DNA from: Octopus vulgaris | Taxonomy: Eukaryota | Assembly: GCA_951406725.2 (NCBI GenBank) | Contig: OX597836.1 | Span: 45,198,001-45,262,000 of the forward strand | Reading direction: 5' to 3' | Length of the DNA stretch: 64,000 nt | Shown here: positions 1 to 20,700 of the stretch, piece by piece | How positions within the stretch are numbered: the first letter of the stretch is position 1 | Layout: the number at the start of each line of letters is the position of its first letter | Made by a program: the position numbers

Positions 1-3000
1 CGTAAAATGTAAACTGGCAAAATATATTTATCCTAAATGCGATACAAAATAAGTTTGAGTAATAAATCAATGGTTAGGGTTGCAGGCTCTCATGAGAACT
101 TCCCTTCGGCATTCTAAAATACCTATATCGAAAGAATGGCCTTCCTTGATGTCCGTCTGTTAAATATGTGAAGCTTTTTCGAGTGACAATGAAAACAATT
201 TGCCTGTCCCTTTTTTATAACCTTTCTGATAAAGTCCTTAACCCTTCGTTACCAACCCGGCTAAAACCGACTCTGGCTCTGAGGTCTTGTTATAAGTATT
301 GAATTAAAATCTTCTGCCAAACCTTAGTCACAATCTATGTTCCCAACACTAGCTTAATGATGACGAAGTTCTTTTACTAAATTCTTTGTTATATTTAGAA
401 TTATTTGAAAGAAACGGAGCATCTCAAAATAGAGTAACGAAAGGGTTAAACGATCGCAACATAATTTTCCTGTGCGCACATCCACCCACACACAAACATG
501 TGTGTATATAAAATTATAGTTCCAGTCATTGGGTTGCTGCATGGTAGCACACCACTCTGAAGATTATTAAATTGGACGGAATTCACGGGCCTATTATAGT
601 AGTCGCACGTTGTGACTGTACTAAAAAAACCACATGGTTTCGAAGAGGAGTTTTTAATCACAGCCATACCTGCGCCTTGGGGTCGATGTAATCGACTTAA
701 TCCGTTTGTCTGCCCTTGTTTGTCCCCTCTGTTTAGCCCCTTGTGGGCAATAGAGAAATATATATATGTATGTGTTTGACGATATAGAGTATATGAACTA
801 GGGGCTTTCTTACTCAGTAAAACGTCTGAGCCATTGTATGATTACATGAAATCACAATGGGAGACCGTAGTCCTTGAGAACTTTGCCACTACTGGAACGG
901 CATGGAATTTGTTCGATCAGGGCTGATGTATATCTAACAATTTGTCTATCCTCTGAAGATTTGCAGTACTTAATTATTTGATAAAAGCCAATGTTTTGTA
1001 TAGAAGAGTGATTGGCAGTAAAAATATCCCCAAAATTATTTTAGTTATAAATTATATTATCGTTGTAATAAAATTTGCTTAATATTAATTTACATGAGCA
1101 AGTGATAGTCTTTCCAAAAAATAGTAAATGTTCCCAGAAATGGTTGGAAGTTATAAAAAATGAAATGTCTTGGGTGGAAATGAAGTTATCCTGAAGTGCT
1201 CCATGTAGCAATGTAGGGGAGAGGGTTAATGTGGTACTGGTAGGGGACAAGGAAGAAGCGATCAAAATGTTTTCCAGCAATGTACAATACTTGAGATCCT
1301 GGATCTGTTCTAAAACAATTGACTATGATGACACGTGTTGGATGTGATTGTCTGTGAATTCAATCCCTTGGCTGTCTGAGTCCACTTTATCTCACATTGT
1401 CCCTGTGTTGATAGTGAGGATAAGGGTCCCGTTGACTGTTTTAATCATAATTTGATAATTGCTTTTTTTTTTTTTACTTAGTTCCTGGAAGAATTCAAAC
1501 ATTTTTATTTTTCAATAATGTCCAAGTGTGTGTGTATGGGTTACTTAAGGGCCAGTACTTACATTGTACCTCAGTTGCGGACTTGAGACAATCGTGAGAT
1601 GGATAAACTACTTTTTTAGGCATGGCCTTTTTGAGTTTCAAATCTACCGATGGCTTTATCCCTCGGGGTCGATAATATAGGTACTACTTAAGAAGGGTGG
1701 TCCCGGTGCGCGCATCCGAGCTAGCTAGTCGATCCTACAACGACCACCTAGCAAAATAAATAAAATACAAAATGATTTTTACACAAAGTAAGGATCGACT
1801 AGTCACGACTAGCTTGTGCGACTACGCGAGTGTGCGCCCCGGGACCACTCTTCTTAAGTAGTACCAATTTGTGCAAGTAGGAAAGGAAACCTCTGAAGTT
1901 CCAAATTGACGGCTTAATTTGCGTTTAACACGCATCCGCATATTTTCTCCCTTTTGCGTCTGGACATCTTCATTTGGCAGGATGACCGAAATGTTCTTCG
2001 TGTAGACCAACAATAAACGATTAAAAGGATTATTGTACAGGGAAGAAACATGGCTTTTGTCAAAGAAAGAACGGTGACGAATTGATTTTCTGTTTCTACA
2101 AAGCTGCAGTATCACTTTTCCATTAATAATGTCACCTCTTGTAATAAGGCCACATGATGAATTCACAATTTCCACAGGTGTATTTGTTCATAATTGACGC
2201 CCTGCCAACCATTGAAGGATGTTGTCTCGTGATTCTGCCAAGTGACTGATGATATTCCACAATCCATCTAATATTGCTTTACGACGATTTCAACTAGACT
2301 TTATTATGCAGATTGAGTGTTCAATTTTATTTCTGTGGTAAAGAAATTGAGAGGTGGGCTCATGACTTCAGAAAACGTTCGGGCAATGATGGAATTAAGA
2401 ATATTTGCTATATGAATACTAATGATTACAAATATTTTGCTGAGCCTGACAAAACTTCAAACTTTTCCAGGTTACAAGGGTTTACAGTGCCATTTTGAGC
2501 GATTTCCAAAATGATCACAGAACCAAAGTAAAAGTATCAAAGAACATATTTGGGTTGTGTCCCTTCATTTTCATTTTTTTTTTTACACTTGTGTAAACTG
2601 AACAATTAACAATATATAGACAGAGGGAGGGAGTTTAGATTTAGACAAGATTTATTGTAGATTGGTGGGGTTAGTATGTACAGCAGACCAAATGCAGTTG
2701 TCAAGCACATTAAGGTTTTTGTTTTTCTGTTGAAATACGGAATTTTATGATTAAATTTTCAATTGGAAATCACATTTCCTCATTTGCGTCTCCTGCAGCC
2801 TAAATTCAAGAAAGGAAAAAAGAAGTTGCCACCAGTTCCTACTGTTGCTAGGAAGGTGGAACCAAAGAAAGTGGTCAACCCCCTGTTTGAGAAAAGACCA
2901 AAGAACTTTGGTATTGGTGAGTAAATTCAAAATTTCTCTCTTCATTTTATAATAAAGTCTAGTGTTAGCAGTATTTTATGGAAGAACTTAACCCTTTTGT

Positions 3001-17796: not shown

Positions 17797-20700
17797 CATA
17801 TTTTGGTCAGAAATATGGTAACGAGAGGGTTAACTATAGGATGAGATAGGTGATGTTAAGACTTGGATAATGATGAAGTAAACCTGTCAGATCCCTGCAT
17901 GGTGATAATCTAATCACTACCAACCGAGATCTCTGAGTCCAGTTTTAACTGTATTAGGAATGATGAGCTTTGTTATAGTAACTTAGTAGATATTTTAAAA
18001 GTTTATTGTTAATGTGATACCAACTTACTTGAGATAGCTTCTATATAAATTTTCTGTTTAAAAGCGATATAAATTAAAATTTTTTAAAGTGTTAGTTTAT
18101 ATTCCAAACATTAGCTTAATAATTTCAATAAATTTGTTATTATTTTCTCAAACATTTCACGTGGAAAACACTAACATAACAGAGAGCATGATTTTTAATT
18201 AGCTGATGATGGTAATGATGAAATATATTGGGGGGATTAGATTCACACATTTTCAATGCTACTTTTAATTATTTGAATTACTCCTGTATATAAATCTACA
18301 CACATTAATTGAATTGCTCTTGTATGTACTCCAGTACAGGCTTTTACCATTTTCCTAAATATGGTTGGTGTCGAGTTATTTCCCTTTTAACCAGTTTGAA
18401 TTTGCTCTTATCTGAACCCATAGTTTAAAATTTTGCAAATAAAACAAAGAATGTTTGATCCCTTATAAAAAGTGAGCAAGTACCCCCTCATTACATGTAT
18501 CTTTGGTAATGTAATGTTGGCTAAATCATAGTTGGAATCCCTTTGTTGGTTGGTGCTTTCAACCTGGGTTCACCTTTGGCTACAAACTACAGCCCAACGT
18601 TTCAATTTCATAAAAACATTTACAAAAAAGACATTGTAAAATGAGGTCAACATGGGAATGAATTTACTTTGCAGATGTTGCAAATGATTGAATTATGCAC
18701 CAATTGTCTTGTCAGTAAATCTGTCTCTCTCTCTCCCCCTCTCCTGCGGAGGGGACCAGTCGATTAGATCAGCCCCAGTACGCAACTGGTCCTTAATTTA
18801 TCGACCCCAAAAAGTTGAAAGGCAAAGTCGACCTATATATATATATATATATATACATATATATATGTATATATACACATATATCTCGTTGCTGTCATAT
18901 GTCCCAAATTTGGCCAAATGTTTTTTTTTTTTAAATATTTAATTTTGCTTGGTCAAACTATTGTATCTCCAGCGCTGTTTCAGTTGAAAATTGCCAGTGT
19001 AGTACAACAGTTTAATATTTTTCAAAAGTGTAGTAAGTCCTACATAAGACAGTTTTGCAAAAAATATTTTCTGACTGAAAATATACTCGCATAGTTACGA
19101 TTTTAAGCACCCAGCAAAGTATTTATGAAGGCTGAACCTGTTGCTAATGTAAAAAGAAATGGAACGGTGAAACTATTGTTTCGCTTCCTGAAAATGCAAT
19201 GTTTTGAACTTGTGACACGTTTGCATAATAATGATATACACACACACTAACAGTATTGTAACAGCAGTAAAGGAGTTTGAAGCTATGGATGTAAGCAAAT
19301 TGGACAGTGATGAAGACAATTTATCAGTTACATCTCCATGGTGATATTTTATTTACTACCGAGATCTCTGAGTCCAGTCGTTTGTAATGATTTTTTTTTT
19401 TTTTTTAGGTTCATTTAAATAATTTTGTGTTTTCTTAGAATTAGGGTTTTATTTTGTAAAATGTCCAATGAATAATGGAGAAATAAAGCAAGAACTTGAT
19501 TACTTATACAGGTGGAGTAAGTGATGAGTGGAGGTGAGGAAGGAATTCAGTGAGATTGAGATAATTTGTGTTTCATATACATTGTCATTAACACCTGCCT
19601 TCCATGCTAGCATGGGTGGGACTACATATGTATACACACACACTTATAAATATTTTTTGTCTCCGTTAGCATACTTTGTCAACTCTATTTGTTTATGCCA
19701 TTATTATTAATTCATTTTCTTTACTATTTTTATTATAACTATTGTTAATGTCACCTTCAAAAAACACATTCAGATTTGAATGGTTTTATACACACACACA
19801 AACACACACCTACTCTACCGTTGGTTGAGTCAGTGACTTGTTTACTCCATGGGGGTCAATGAGTATCATAAAGAAATGTCAGAACACCAGATCTGTTAGA
19901 CAGAAGTGTTAAATAGAAACAGTTTCTCAGATACTGAAATCATTGTTGGTTCTTTTGAAATAGTATTTTTTGTGCGCTTGTGCTTGTGCATCGGACAAGT
20001 AATTATATAAAACAAAGTTTGAATAATTCTGGTTTAAATTCCCAGCATACTTTGGCTTCATTTTTACTCTGGGTATTATCAATAGGATCACAGTGATGCT
20101 TGAATTTCTTCAACTGAATTTTTGTAATTTTGAAGACAACTTGACAACTTCTGAGTGATCATTTCTAATTGTGTCCCCTTCCCTGGCATCCCCTGCTTTC
20201 CTTGTGACTTAACCCCTTACCCGGCAGAAACGAATATATGCGTTTTGACCGAAATCGTTTTTTTCTATCTCTGGTGAGTTAACTCGCCAAAATCAACAGC
20301 AAACGAGTTCCTTCGTCTAAAAACGGGTTAACTCGTTTCTGCCCAAAGCGGTAATTTAAAATCAATATTATTGAATTAAAATTAAATAAGGTTTGAAATA
20401 TACCTCGAAATCACCATTCAAAACAGTGAAATAAAACAATTAAAAAATATGTCTGAAAAATTACATTTATTTTCAAAATAATTGTTGGGTAAGGGGTTAA
20501 TTCCAAATCAGATCTTGTCCTTTTATATATCTGTACAATACTTAGTATGATTTAGTATTAAAAGTTTTCAACCCACTTTTCAGCTTGTACTCTTTATGCC
20601 TGCACTGTGTCGTAAAACTGATGTCCCCTATTGCATCGTAAAAGGAAAGGCTCGTCTTGGCAGAGTTGTCAACACAAAGACCTGCTCATGTCTGGCCATC

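What the first reader, a model, noticed from the sequence alone, without database searches (positions are those of the whole stretch)
1321..20160. RPL7A introns form a polycistronic snoRNA array with up to eight snoRNAs in one intron
Seen: about 15 intact-looking snoRNA genes, all on the sense strand. Presumed intron 1 has 2; intron 2 (2917-10540) has 8 plus a pseudogene; intron 3 has 2; intron 4 has 3. Known: vertebrate intronic snoRNAs are normally one per intron, released by debranching and exonucleolytic trimming, and C/D types usually lie about 70-80 nt above the acceptor. Here only the ACA50-like RNA is at that position. Inference: releasing several RNAs from one lariat needs endonucleolytic cutting, recursive splicing or hidden non-coding exons. 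This would be a little-described processing route in a mollusc.
Basis: partly seen in the sequence, partly recalled or inferred. Interest (0 to 1): 0.85.

Follow-up and report, generated by a model that had tools for sequence, protein, structure and literature searches.

The report
Octopus RPL7A introns packed with snoRNAs
An octopus ribosomal-protein gene carries about fifteen small nucleolar RNA genes in its first four introns, up to eight in one intron; this layout is real here but is already known from flies and rice.

Summary
Six exons (2799-23573, + strand) map colinearly onto octopus ribosomal protein eL8/L7a (PDB 9eho_G). The four alignments I printed (exons 2, 5, 6, 7) are 100% identical. 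Only the ATG-bearing exon 1 was not found.

They are 12 box C/D and 3 box H/ACA units in eight sequence families. Motif scans find none on the antisense strand for C/D.

Only SNORD36 passes Rfam's gathering score. SNORD24-, SNORD53/92-, SNORD103- and SNORA50-like units score below it but keep the family guide elements. Two H/ACA-like units have no family.

The extra copies arose by local duplication. SNORD24 and SNORD36 also sit in human RPL7A.

Several snoRNAs per intron is a described arrangement (intronic gene clusters in rice and Drosophila; sno-lncRNAs in mammals). How the inner units are released cannot be read from DNA.

Five exon-like acceptor-donor pairs on the sense strand (one on the antisense strand) could split introns 1, 2 (5' part) and 4. 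None lies in 4370-10540, which holds seven units. Expression data would decide.

The parts
2799..2916 (+). RPL7A (eL8) coding exon 2, residues 2-40 plus the first base of codon 41
   Evidence: Acceptor ...ctcctgcag| and donor |gtgagt read. Translation is 39/39 identical to 9eho_G residues 2-40.
10541..10690 (+). RPL7A exon 3, residues 42-90
   Evidence: Splice sites. Best PDB hit is 9eho_G 42-90, E 1.2e-27.
17305..17525 (+). RPL7A exon 4, residues 92-164
   Evidence: Splice sites. 9eho_G 92-164, E 3e-42. Pfam Ribosomal_L7Ae, 30.8 bits.
20584..20714 (+). RPL7A exon 5, residues 165-207
   Evidence: Splice sites. 43/43 identical to 9eho_G. Pfam Ribosomal_L7Ae, 39.4 bits.
22111..22180 (+). RPL7A exon 6, residues 209-231
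   Evidence: Splice sites. 23/23 identical to 9eho_G.
23469..23573 (+). RPL7A exon 7, coding part, residues 232-265 and the stop codon
   Evidence: Splice site and TAA. 34/34 identical to the C-terminus of 9eho_G.
1320..1383 (+). A1, box C/D unit, SNORD53/92-like
   Evidence: C box ATGATGA, D box CTGA, 3-bp terminal stem. Rfam RF00325, 31.3 bits (cut-off 46), E 0.0093. Lies in a 438-nt segment that is 93.6% identical to the A2 segment.
2381..2447 (+). B1, box C/D unit carrying the 5' guide of SNORD24
   Evidence: C box ATGATGG, D box CTGA, 6-bp stem. Rfam SNORD24 30.8 bits (cut-off 41) and snoR124 33.4 bits.
3725..3791 (+). B2, copy of B1
   Evidence: 2303-2498 against 3647-3842 is 95.9% identical. 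In the cmscan alignment AAUAUUUGCU matches the SNORD24 consensus.
5544..5607 (+). A2, copy of A1
   Evidence: Rfam RF00325, 33.1 bits. The guide CUUGGCUGU before the D box matches the family consensus.
6279..6350 (+). C1, box C/D unit, SNORD103-like, with a weak C box (ATGAGGT)
   Evidence: Rfam RF00188, 27.4 bits (cut-off 45). The guide CUUGCCCUC before D' matches the consensus. Flanking external stem of -11.1 kcal/mol beyond the first 6 nt, reached by 1.7% of controls.
7005..7135 (+). H2a, H/ACA-like unit with no family
   Evidence: Hairpin, ACATTA, hairpin, ACA found by my scan. Fold z-score -2.4. No Rfam hit. 95.9% identical to H2b over 147 nt, with unrelated DNA on both sides.
7337..7402 (+). 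C2p, truncated C-family copy (pseudogene)
   Evidence: Aligns to C1 from 6294 onward only. It lacks the 5' stem and C box, and its D' box reads CTGG.
8138..8268 (+). H2b, H/ACA-like unit, copy of H2a
   Evidence: Fold z-score -3.66, with 0 of 200 shuffles folding as well.
9253..9324 (+). C3, copy of C1
   Evidence: 6261-6368 against 9235-9342 is 97.2% identical. Similarity drops to about 73% in the next stretch and then disappears. Rfam RF00188, 28.4 bits.
9957..10025 (+). A3, diverged A-family box C/D unit
   Evidence: Rfam RF00325, 35.0 bits. Only the boxes and the 17-nt 3' guide plus D box are identical to A1 and A2. External stem -13.0 kcal/mol, reached by 0.45% of controls.
10338..10467 (+). 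H1, box H/ACA unit, SNORA50-like, 73 nt before exon 3
   Evidence: Rfam RF00407, 43.4 bits (cut-off 90), E 3e-05, with the 5' pocket sequences conserved. Folds as hairpin, hinge, hairpin, ACA.
11657..11734 (+). D1, box C/D unit that shares its 3' guide with E1
   Evidence: C box ATGATGA, D box CTGA, 6-bp stem. Alignment with E1. Weak snoR160 row, E 3.6.
16765..16842 (+). D2, copy of D1
   Evidence: 11546-11856 against 16652-16968 is 93.1% identical.
17864..17941 (+). D3, copy of D1 and D2
   Evidence: 16700-16919 against 17799-18019 is 96.4% identical. The unit itself is identical to D2.
19302..19375 (+). E1, box C/D unit, SNORD24-like through its 3' guide
   Evidence: Rfam RF00069, 31.3 bits (cut-off 41). 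The guide ACUACCGAGAUC against consensus ACCACCAAGAUC differs by two transitions. 7-bp terminal stem.
20088..20159 (+). F1, SNORD36
   Evidence: The only match above an Rfam gathering score in the 64-kb window, 37.4 bits against 30. The D' guide GAAUUUCUUCA matches the consensus.
1482..1705 (+). Candidate unannotated exon (sequence signals only), between A1 and B1
   Evidence: Acceptor score 11.2, 98 nt after A1. Donor score 9.0. No transcript evidence.
3400..3697 (+). Candidate unannotated exon, between exon 2 and B2
   Evidence: Acceptor 9.0, donor 9.5. The site at 3397-3404 also reads CAG|GTAAGT. No transcript evidence.
4110..4369 (+). Candidate unannotated exon, between B2 and A2
   Evidence: Acceptor 11.2, donor 9.6. 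Its 3' end runs into a SINE-like repeat copy, 4349-4734.
19409..19533 (+). Candidate unannotated exon, between E1 and F1
   Evidence: Acceptor T17-AG, score 11.9, 33 nt after E1. Donor 11.5. Unique within the window.
20228..20273 (+). Candidate 46-nt unannotated exon, between F1 and exon 5
   Evidence: Acceptor 8.9, 68 nt after F1, after a C/T-rich tract. Donor CTG|GTGAGT, score 11.0. Unique within the window.

Best explanation
This is the octopus gene for ribosomal protein eL8 (RPL7A) acting as a multi-snoRNA host gene.

Its introns 1 (presumed) to 4 carry an intronic snoRNA gene cluster of 12 box C/D and 3 box H/ACA units. They fall into eight sequence families: SNORD53/92-like x3, a SNORD24 5'-guide type x2, SNORD103-like x2 plus a truncated copy, an unassigned H/ACA type x2, SNORA50-like x1, a D type x3, SNORD24-like x1 and SNORD36 x1.

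The cluster grew by repeated local duplication of snoRNA-sized or slightly larger DNA pieces within and between neighbouring introns.

All units are transcribed as part of the RPL7A pre-mRNA. This is inferred from their uniform sense orientation and from the lack of any shared upstream motif.

My commitment on release is inferred, not shown. Most units, and in particular the seven between 4370 and 10540, share one intron. snoRNP proteins assemble on each unit independently of the distance to the branch point, helped in some units by flanking external stems. Endonucleolytic cuts in the spacers, followed by exonucleolytic trimming, then free the inner units. A few units near good cryptic splice sites (A1, E1, F1) may instead, or also, be released through alternative or nested splicing that produces non-productive isoforms.

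My confidence that these are real co-transcribed snoRNA genes with several per coding intron is about 0.85. My confidence that spacer cleavage rather than hidden exons is the main release route is about 0.4-0.45. The single confidence value given for this explanation (0.45) is for the whole statement, release route included.
For: - Host gene: six exons map colinearly on octopus eL8.
- Unit architecture and strand bias: C/D scan 11 loci on + and 0 on -.
- Family guide elements are kept: SNORD53/92, SNORD24 5' guide, SNORD103 and SNORA50 pocket; SNORD24 3' guide and SNORD36.
- SNORD24, SNORD36B and SNORD36C are listed with host RPL7A in human (PMC3511933 Table 1), so two families share the host gene across phyla.
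- Constraint on copies. A3 against A1/A2, and E1 against D1-3, keep only the boxes and guide. C1/C3 are 97% identical over 108 nt but about 73% just outside. H2a/H2b are 96% identical over 147 nt with unalignable flanks. The spacers give no hit.
- Duplication.
- External stems beyond the first 6 nt: A3 -13.0, C1 -11.1, C3 -11.8 kcal/mol, each reached by fewer than 2% of 2000 control position pairs.
- No strict exon-like acceptor-donor pair lies between 4370 and 10540.
- The per-unit 'mini-intron' test is not better than controls for 13 of 15 units.
- Precedent: intronic gene clusters in rice and Drosophila (PMC2780460). Endonucleolytic maturation of some intronic snoRNAs is mentioned in PMC13736004 (Introduction passage).
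Against: - There are no expression data of any kind, so no mature ends, lariats or isoforms were seen.
- Only 1 of 15 units reaches an Rfam gathering score, and H2a/H2b have no family.
- Complementarity to octopus rRNA was not tested. The window holds no rRNA.
- A1/A2, B1/B2 and D1-D3 are young duplicates whose flanks are as similar as the units, so some copies may be silent.
- C1 and C3 have a non-consensus C box.
- External stems are distinct in only 3 of 12 C/D units; the other 9 are within the control range.
- Signals for hidden exons exist. There are 5 unannotated strict acceptor-donor pairs on + against 1 on -. Strong donor-like sites lie in 9 of 11 inter-unit spacers on + against 4 of 11 on -. 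Permutation P is 0.008 at the threshold I chose after looking, 0.02-0.04 at 9.0-9.5, but 0.07-0.17 at 7.0-8.0 and 0.10 at 10.
- Exon 1 was not found, so intron 1 is presumed.
Confidence: 0.45

Rival explanations
1. The locus is organised like a UHG-type host gene. Unannotated short non-coding exons, or nested sub-introns removed first, lie between the units. Each snoRNA is then released from its own small lariat by the ordinary debranching and trimming route. Transcripts that keep these exons are non-productive by-products.
For: - Five strict exon-like acceptor-donor pairs on the sense strand that are not coding exons (1482-1705, 3400-3697, 4110-4369, 19409-19533, 20228-20273), against one on the antisense strand.
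- F1 ends 68 nt and A1 ends 98 nt before such acceptors.
- Flanking donor plus acceptor scores of A1 and E1 are beaten by only 0.4% and 0.9% of 3000 control positions.
- Strong donor-like sites lie in 9 of 11 spacers on +, one in each of six consecutive spacers of intron 2, against 4 of 11 on -.
- Human multi-snoRNA host genes use alternative splicing and yield NMD-sensitive isoforms (PMC4233243, abstract and passages).
Against: - No strict pair lies in 4370-10540, which holds seven units.
- 13 of 15 units have flanking splice signals no better than controls.
- The spacer enrichment depends on the threshold: P is 0.13-0.17 at 7.0-7.5 and 0.10 at 10. The threshold was picked after seeing the data.
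- The scoring matrices are home-made from textbook frequencies, not trained on octopus.
- E1 would lie only 33 nt from its acceptor.
Confidence: 0.3
2. Most copies are silent. Each family has one working copy and the recent duplicates are unexpressed relics, so few mature snoRNAs come from any one intron and no special release route is needed.
For: - A1/A2 (93.6% over 438 nt), B1/B2 (95.9% over 196 nt) and D1-D3 (93-97% over 220-317 nt) share flanks as similar as the units, so selection on each copy is not shown.
- One copy (C2p) is already truncated.
Against: - Intron 2 still holds six different families (B, A, C, H2, A3-type, H1), and intron 4 holds three different units. Even one working copy per family leaves several per intron.
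- All 15 units keep their boxes and terminal stems.
- In C1/C3 and H2a/H2b the units are conserved while the flanks have decayed.
Confidence: 0.15
3. The units are independent transcription units with their own promoters that happen to lie inside RPL7A introns.
For: - Long conserved upstream flanks in young duplicates: about 290 nt before A1/A2 and 65-110 nt before D1-D3.
- An intronic promoter is reported for one scaRNA (PMC13736004 passage).
Against: - All 15 units are in the sense orientation.
- I saw no motif shared between families in the 130 nt upstream of each unit. This was by eye only, on the output.
- The flank upstream of A1 is not structured (z +1.85) and lies in low-CpG DNA.
Confidence: 0.05
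4. The extra copies are assembly artefacts, such as haplotypes placed side by side.
For: Several copy pairs are 93-97% identical.
Against: - The copies are not in tandem register: the order is A1, B1, exon 2, B2, A2.
- Copy lengths are only 108-438 nt, embedded in unrelated sequence.
- There are no N runs in the window.
- A3 and E1 are old, diverged paralogues.
Confidence: 0.03

Closest known systems
Intronic snoRNA gene clusters of Drosophila melanogaster and rice
   Same: Several snoRNA genes, often paralogues made by local duplication, lie in one intron of a host gene in the sense orientation. The arrangement is named in PMC2780460 (Background). The Huang et al. 2004 and 2005 titles were seen only in reference lists.
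   Different: The phylum differs: this is a cephalopod mollusc. C/D and H/ACA units are mixed in one intron of a ribosomal-protein gene. The introns are 3-7.6 kb long and full of repeats. I could not read the primary fly papers, so copy numbers per fly intron are not compared.
Human RPL7A as host of SNORD24 and SNORD36B/C
   Same: The host gene is the same and two of the snoRNA families are the same (PMC3511933 Table 1; Rfam matches).
   Different: From recall, the vertebrate gene carries one snoRNA per intron. Here six further families and many duplicates are added. The two SNORD24 guides appear on separate units: B carries the 5' guide, E and D carry the 3' guide.
Non-coding multi-snoRNA host genes (UHG/GAS5 type)
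   Same: Many snoRNAs come from one Pol II transcript, and spliced by-products may be non-productive (PMC4233243).
   Different: Those genes have one snoRNA per intron between short exons. Here the only proven exons are coding, and strict exon-like signals separate only some units.
Polycistronic snoRNA clusters of plants and yeast, processed by endonucleases
   Same: Neighbouring snoRNAs on one precursor need cuts between them. PMC2780460 cites Rat1p and RNase III for a yeast cluster in its reference list.
   Different: Those clusters are mostly independent, non-intronic transcription units. No cleavage signal is identified here.
Mammalian sno-lncRNAs (two snoRNAs in one intron)
   Same: More than one snoRNA lies in an intron. 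The inner stretch is protected from exonucleases (PMC11028025; PMC4696412).
   Different: In mammals such pairs are few, and the product is a long RNA capped by snoRNAs. Whether such RNAs arise here is unknown.

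Membership tests
Box C/D snoRNA | C box (RUGAUGA) near the 5' end and D box (CUGA) near the 3' end | tested here: met
   The D box is CTGA in 12 of 12 units. The C box fits RTGATGN in 10 of 12. C1 and C3 read ATGAGGT.
Box C/D snoRNA | Short terminal stem joining the 5' and 3' ends | tested here: met
   At least 4 bp in 8 units and 3 bp in A1 and A2. C1 and C3 have a long flanking stem of -18.8 and -19.3 kcal/mol.
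Box C/D snoRNA | Guide of 10 nt or more, complementary to rRNA or snRNA, ending next to D or D' | not testable with these tools
   No octopus rRNA is in the window or in any reachable collection. The only indirect evidence is that guides match the Rfam family consensus for A, B, C, E and F.
Box C/D snoRNA | Stable mature RNA bound by the core proteins | not testable with these tools
   No RNA data were available.
Box H/ACA snoRNA | Hairpin, hinge with H box (ANANNA), hairpin, then ACA 3 nt from the 3' end | tested here: met
   H1: and the SNORA50 alignment. H2a and H2b: with H boxes ACATTA and ATATTA.
Box H/ACA snoRNA | Pseudouridylation pocket complementary to a target | not testable with these tools
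   No rRNA was available. The pocket strands of H1 match the SNORA50 consensus.
Rfam SNORD36 (RF00049) | Score at or above the gathering cut-off | tested here: met
   F1 scores 37.4 bits against 30.
Rfam SNORA50, SNORD53_SNORD92, SNORD24, SNORD103 | Score at or above the gathering cut-off | tested here: not met
   Scores are 43.4 against 90; 31.3-35.0 against 46; 30.8-31.3 against 41; and 27.4-28.4 against 45. I therefore write '-like'. The resemblance rests on the boxes and guide elements.
Intronic snoRNA gene cluster | Two or more snoRNA genes within one intron, on the host's sense strand | tested here: met
   With introns defined by the six protein-mapped exons, the counts are 8 units in 2917-10540, 2 in 10691-17304 and 3 in 17526-20583.
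Intronic snoRNA gene cluster | No exon between the units in the transcripts that yield them | not testable with these tools
   Only sequence signals were available: five candidate exons, none in 4370-10540.
Ribosomal protein eL8 / L7a gene | Colinear full-length match to eL8, with the L7Ae domain | tested here: met
   Residues 2-265 of 9eho_G are covered exon by exon. Pfam PF01248 hits exons 4 and 5. The start-codon exon was not found.

The most novel reading that the evidence does not exclude
An animal protein-coding gene uses one 7.6-kb intron as a true polycistronic snoRNA precursor. Seven or eight C/D and H/ACA snoRNPs assemble on it independently of splicing position. They are cut apart by an endonuclease, a route otherwise typical of plants and yeast. 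Conserved external stems (the C family and A3) act as assembly or cleavage signals. The array is kept homogeneous by gene conversion or selection on RNA-sized units.
Probability: 0.3. Interest if true: 0.6.

Novelty: new member of a known kind. Interest (0 to 1): 0.38.

Why it matters
If the units are expressed, this locus gives a compact test case outside flies and plants for how several snoRNAs are freed from one intron.

It shows that the RPL7A-SNORD24/SNORD36 host relationship predates the split of molluscs and vertebrates.

It also shows a double-guide snoRNA (SNORD24) apportioned to separate single-guide units.

The question can be answered with ordinary octopus RNA-seq and small-RNA-seq. 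The arrangement itself is not new in kind, so the gain is in breadth rather than in principle.

Tried and rejected
- **Exon 1.** It must end in ATG directly before the intron, because exon 2 starts at residue 2. The only ATG|GT sites in 1-2798 are at 70, 541, 634 and 1140, and the ATG|GC sites are at 136, 1622, 1650 and 2050. None has a good donor. The site at 1140 has CTTTCC 30 nt upstream but sits in a segment duplicated inside intron 2. I take exon 1 to lie upstream of the window. Every one of the GT candidates would still leave A1 and B1 in intron 1.
- **A further snoRNA upstream of A1/A2.** I looked for one in the conserved 180 nt there. The stretch is not structured (z +1.85), so I rejected it.
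- **Weak C/D-like hit at 8638-8754.** It is 117 nt with a 3-bp stem and no Rfam row. I treat it as chance.
- **Other H/ACA-scan rows.** Rows at 4438-4574, 9753-9888, 22834-22958 and 22886-23028, and a minus-strand SNORA65 row at E 0.92. Most overlap SINE-like repeat copies and the row at 22834-22958 adjoins one. I treat them as chance.
- **MicroRNA rows.** The mir-297, mir-1277, mir-466 and similar rows are TA-rich simple repeats.
- **Recursive splicing.** Only two AG|GTAAGT sites lie in intron 2, at 3399 and 9456. I judged this too few to argue from, without computing an expectation. I did not pursue it.
- **Per-unit mini-introns.** Not supported for 13 of 15 units.
- **tRNA heads in the repeats.** None found.
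- **Primary Drosophila paper.** PMC1370813 is not held. Sklias et al. 2024 holds nothing on several snoRNAs per intron.
- **External stem literature.** The search for 'external stem' gave only a passage on yeast Rnt1p. The idea that external stems allow assembly far from the branch point is recalled (Hirose and Steitz work), not read here.

Full report
**What the window is.** The window has no N. Its first 24 kb hold six exons on the + strand whose translations were searched one exon at a time. Each has PDB chain 9eho_G (60S ribosomal protein L7a, 265 aa) as its best match. In order they cover residues 2-40, 42-90, 92-164, 165-207, 209-231 and 232-265. The four alignments that I printed are 39/39, 43/43, 23/23 and 34/34 identical. 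9EHO is the Octopus bimaculoides ribosome (passages of bioRxiv 10.64898/2026.06.25.734654). The window is therefore from an octopus, in line with that species.

Splice sites read from the sequence give these exons and introns:
- Exons: 2799-2916, 10541-10690, 17305-17525, 20584-20714, 22111-22180 and 23469-23573.
- Introns: intron 2 = 2917-10540 (7,624 nt), intron 3 = 10691-17304 and intron 4 = 17526-20583.

Exon 2 starts at residue 2, so exon 1 must end in ATG. No ATG followed by a credible donor exists in 1-2798. Exon 1 probably lies upstream of the window, and 'intron 1' stays presumed. Every ATG|GT candidate still leaves A1 and B1 inside it.

**The snoRNA units.** At gathering thresholds Rfam finds one family in the whole window: SNORD36 at 20088-20159, 37.4 bits against a cut-off of 30. 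At E<=10 in 1-24000, all snoRNA-type rows lie on the + strand and fall on 13 loci. All minus-strand rows are microRNA models matching TA-rich repeats.

My own C box / D box / terminal-stem scan found 8 loci on + and none on - with a stem of at least 4 bp. With a stem of at least 3 bp it found 11 loci on + and none on -. One of the 11, at 8638-8754, I discount.

A crude H/ACA scan recovered the SNORA50-like unit and two more units, 7005-7135 and 8138-8268. These are copies of each other, fold better than shuffles (z -2.4 and -3.66) and have no Rfam match.

Together this gives 12 C/D and 3 H/ACA units plus one truncated copy.

The cmscan alignments show that the sub-threshold units keep the family guide elements:
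- CUUGGCUGU before the D box: SNORD53/92, units A1-A3.
- AAUAUUUGCU: 5' guide of SNORD24, units B1 and B2.
- CUUGCCCUC: SNORD103, units C1 and C3.
- The pocket strands of SNORA50: unit H1 (all four).
- ACUACCGAGAUC against ACCACCAAGAUC: 3' guide of SNORD24, unit E1. The two differences are transitions.
- GAAUUUCUUCA: SNORD36, unit F1.

The D units share E1's 3' guide with a 4-nt insertion in the alignment.

I could not test complementarity to rRNA. The window has none, and no eukaryotic collection was reachable.

**How the array arose.** Self-comparison shows young DNA duplications that include flanks:
- A1/A2: 438 nt, 93.6% identical.
- B1/B2: 196 nt, 95.9% identical.
- D1/D2/D3: 220-317 nt, 93-97% identical.

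Other copies show similarity confined to the RNA-sized unit. H2a/H2b are 95.9% identical over 147 nt with unalignable DNA on both sides. C1/C3 are 97% identical over 108 nt, falling to about 73% just downstream and to nothing beyond. The spacers of the C1-H2a-C2p-H2b-C3 series give no hit. A3 and E1 are old paralogues in which only the boxes and guides are kept.

These patterns argue for constraint, or gene conversion, on at least the C, H2, A3 and E units. They say nothing either way for the young copies.

**Position and flanks.** H1 ends 73 nt before exon 3. B1, D2 and F1 end 351, 462 and 424 nt before the next coding exon. Flanking complementarity beyond the first six nucleotides is distinct for A3 (-13.0 kcal/mol), C1 (-11.1) and C3 (-11.8), each reached by fewer than 2% of 2000 control pairs. 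It is not distinct for the other nine C/D units.

**Hidden exons?** I scored splice sites with home-made matrices based on textbook frequencies, not trained on octopus. Strict acceptor-donor pairs had to reach the acceptor level met by 5 of 6 real acceptors and the donor level met by 4 of 5 real donors, and be 25-300 nt apart. Seven were found on + and one on -. Two of the seven are exons 2 and 3. The other five are 1482-1705, 3400-3697, 4110-4369, 19409-19533 and 20228-20273.

F1 ends 68 nt and A1 ends 98 nt before such acceptors. Strong donor-like sites lie in 9 of 11 inter-unit spacers on + and 4 of 11 on -. Permutation P is 0.008 at 8.4, 0.018 at 9.0 and 0.04 at 9.5, but 0.07-0.17 at 7.0-8.0 and 0.10 at 10.0. 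I chose the threshold after looking at the data.

Against a general hidden-exon layout:
- No strict pair lies in 4370-10540, where A2, C1, H2a, H2b, C3, A3 and H1 sit.
- For 13 of 15 units the best flanking donor plus acceptor is no better than at control positions. Only A1 (0.4%) and E1 (0.9%) stand out.

**What is known.**
- One snoRNA per intron is the predominant rule in animals, but 'intronic snoRNA clusters' are a listed class (PMC11028025 passages).
[quoted passage not shown] I saw the titles of the primary fly papers only in reference lists and could not open one of them.
- In vertebrates such cases are few (PMC4696412 passage). Two cases are reported in chicken (PMC2770669 passage).
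- Two snoRNAs in one intron give sno-lncRNAs.
- Position relative to the branch point matters for C/D units, and endonucleolytic maturation exists for some intronic snoRNAs (PMC13736004 passages).
- Multi-snoRNA hosts use alternative splicing and make NMD-sensitive isoforms (PMC4233243).
- Human RPL7A is listed as host of SNORD24, SNORD36B and SNORD36C (PMC3511933 Table 1).
- Searches for mollusc or octopus snoRNA organisation returned nothing relevant. One search listed all 9 papers found. One search found 58 papers, of which I saw the 15 best-ranked. I saw listings only.
The review's supplementary tables and the chicken paper's supplementary figure might hold further examples.

**Verdict.** The thing is a real-looking intronic snoRNA gene cluster in octopus RPL7A, a new member of a known kind.

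The route actually used (spacer cleavage, nested or alternative splicing, or silence of many copies) cannot be decided from DNA. I favour several units per intron with spacer cleavage for the core of intron 2, at about 0.4-0.45. Splicing-based release is plausible for A1, E1 and F1.

**Not checked.** Any comparison with other cephalopod genomes, transcripts or rRNA was out of reach.

Noticed in passing
window 13056-16085 (inside RPL7A intron 3): A satellite of 178-bp units, 17.0 copies, 99% matches. It fills almost half of intron 3, between D1 and D2.
   Followed up: partly
window 4349-4734, 9562-9908 (inverted), 17560-17776 (inverted), 22961-23099, 25237-25624, and similar ORF strings at 31346-31732, 38697-39095, 54689-55093, 62694-63068: A SINE-like interspersed repeat, 76-95% identical between copies, often next to TA or CA microsatellites. 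No tRNA-like head was detected by ARAGORN in 1-26000. It causes false H/ACA and SNORA65-like rows.
   Followed up: partly
window 234-450, 2988-3213 (inverted), 7895-8120, 21007-21224 (inverted): A second short interspersed repeat of about 220 nt, 81-88% identical between copies, present in introns 1, 2 and 5. A related motif borders the D-family units.
   Followed up: no
window 3397-3404: A pyrimidine tract followed by CAG|GTAAGT, that is an acceptor joined to a donor as in recursive splice sites. It lies 480 nt into intron 2. A second AG|GTAAGT lies at 9454-9461.
   Followed up: partly
window 2354-2470 and 3698-3814: Both B copies sit between a conserved donor-like GAG|GTGGGC 27 nt upstream and TTTTCCAG| 23 nt downstream, outlining a possible 117-nt mini-intron. 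The acceptor score is only 2.2, which is not better than controls.
   Followed up: partly
window 7136-7147 and 8269-8280: The 3' trailer conserved between H2a and H2b (ACA box, then a T-rich run ending in TAG) scores as an acceptor-like site about 12 nt after the unit.
   Followed up: no
window 1032-1465 vs 5253-5689: The duplicated A-unit segment keeps about 290 nt of upstream flank at 94-96% identity. This includes a CTTTCC...ATG|GT string that superficially resembles a TOP 5' exon. Its meaning is unknown.
   Followed up: partly
window 48755-49156 (-), 59951-60313 (+), 57912-58436 (-), 42024-42362 (+): Transposon remnants downstream of the gene: a GIY-YIG domain ORF, a piggyBac-type DDE_Tnp_1_7 fragment and a DUF6451 ORF repeated at 55515-56171. 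An ORF that looks Tc1/mariner-like by eye has no Pfam hit. No other cellular gene was recognised in 24-64 kb among ORFs of at least 110 aa.
   Followed up: partly
window 11836-11897, 12445-12512, 17737-17810, 18815-18902: TA-rich and TG-rich microsatellites give sub-threshold matches to mir-297, mir-1277, mir-466, mir-3149 and mir-3688 on both strands. These are low-complexity artefacts.
   Followed up: yes
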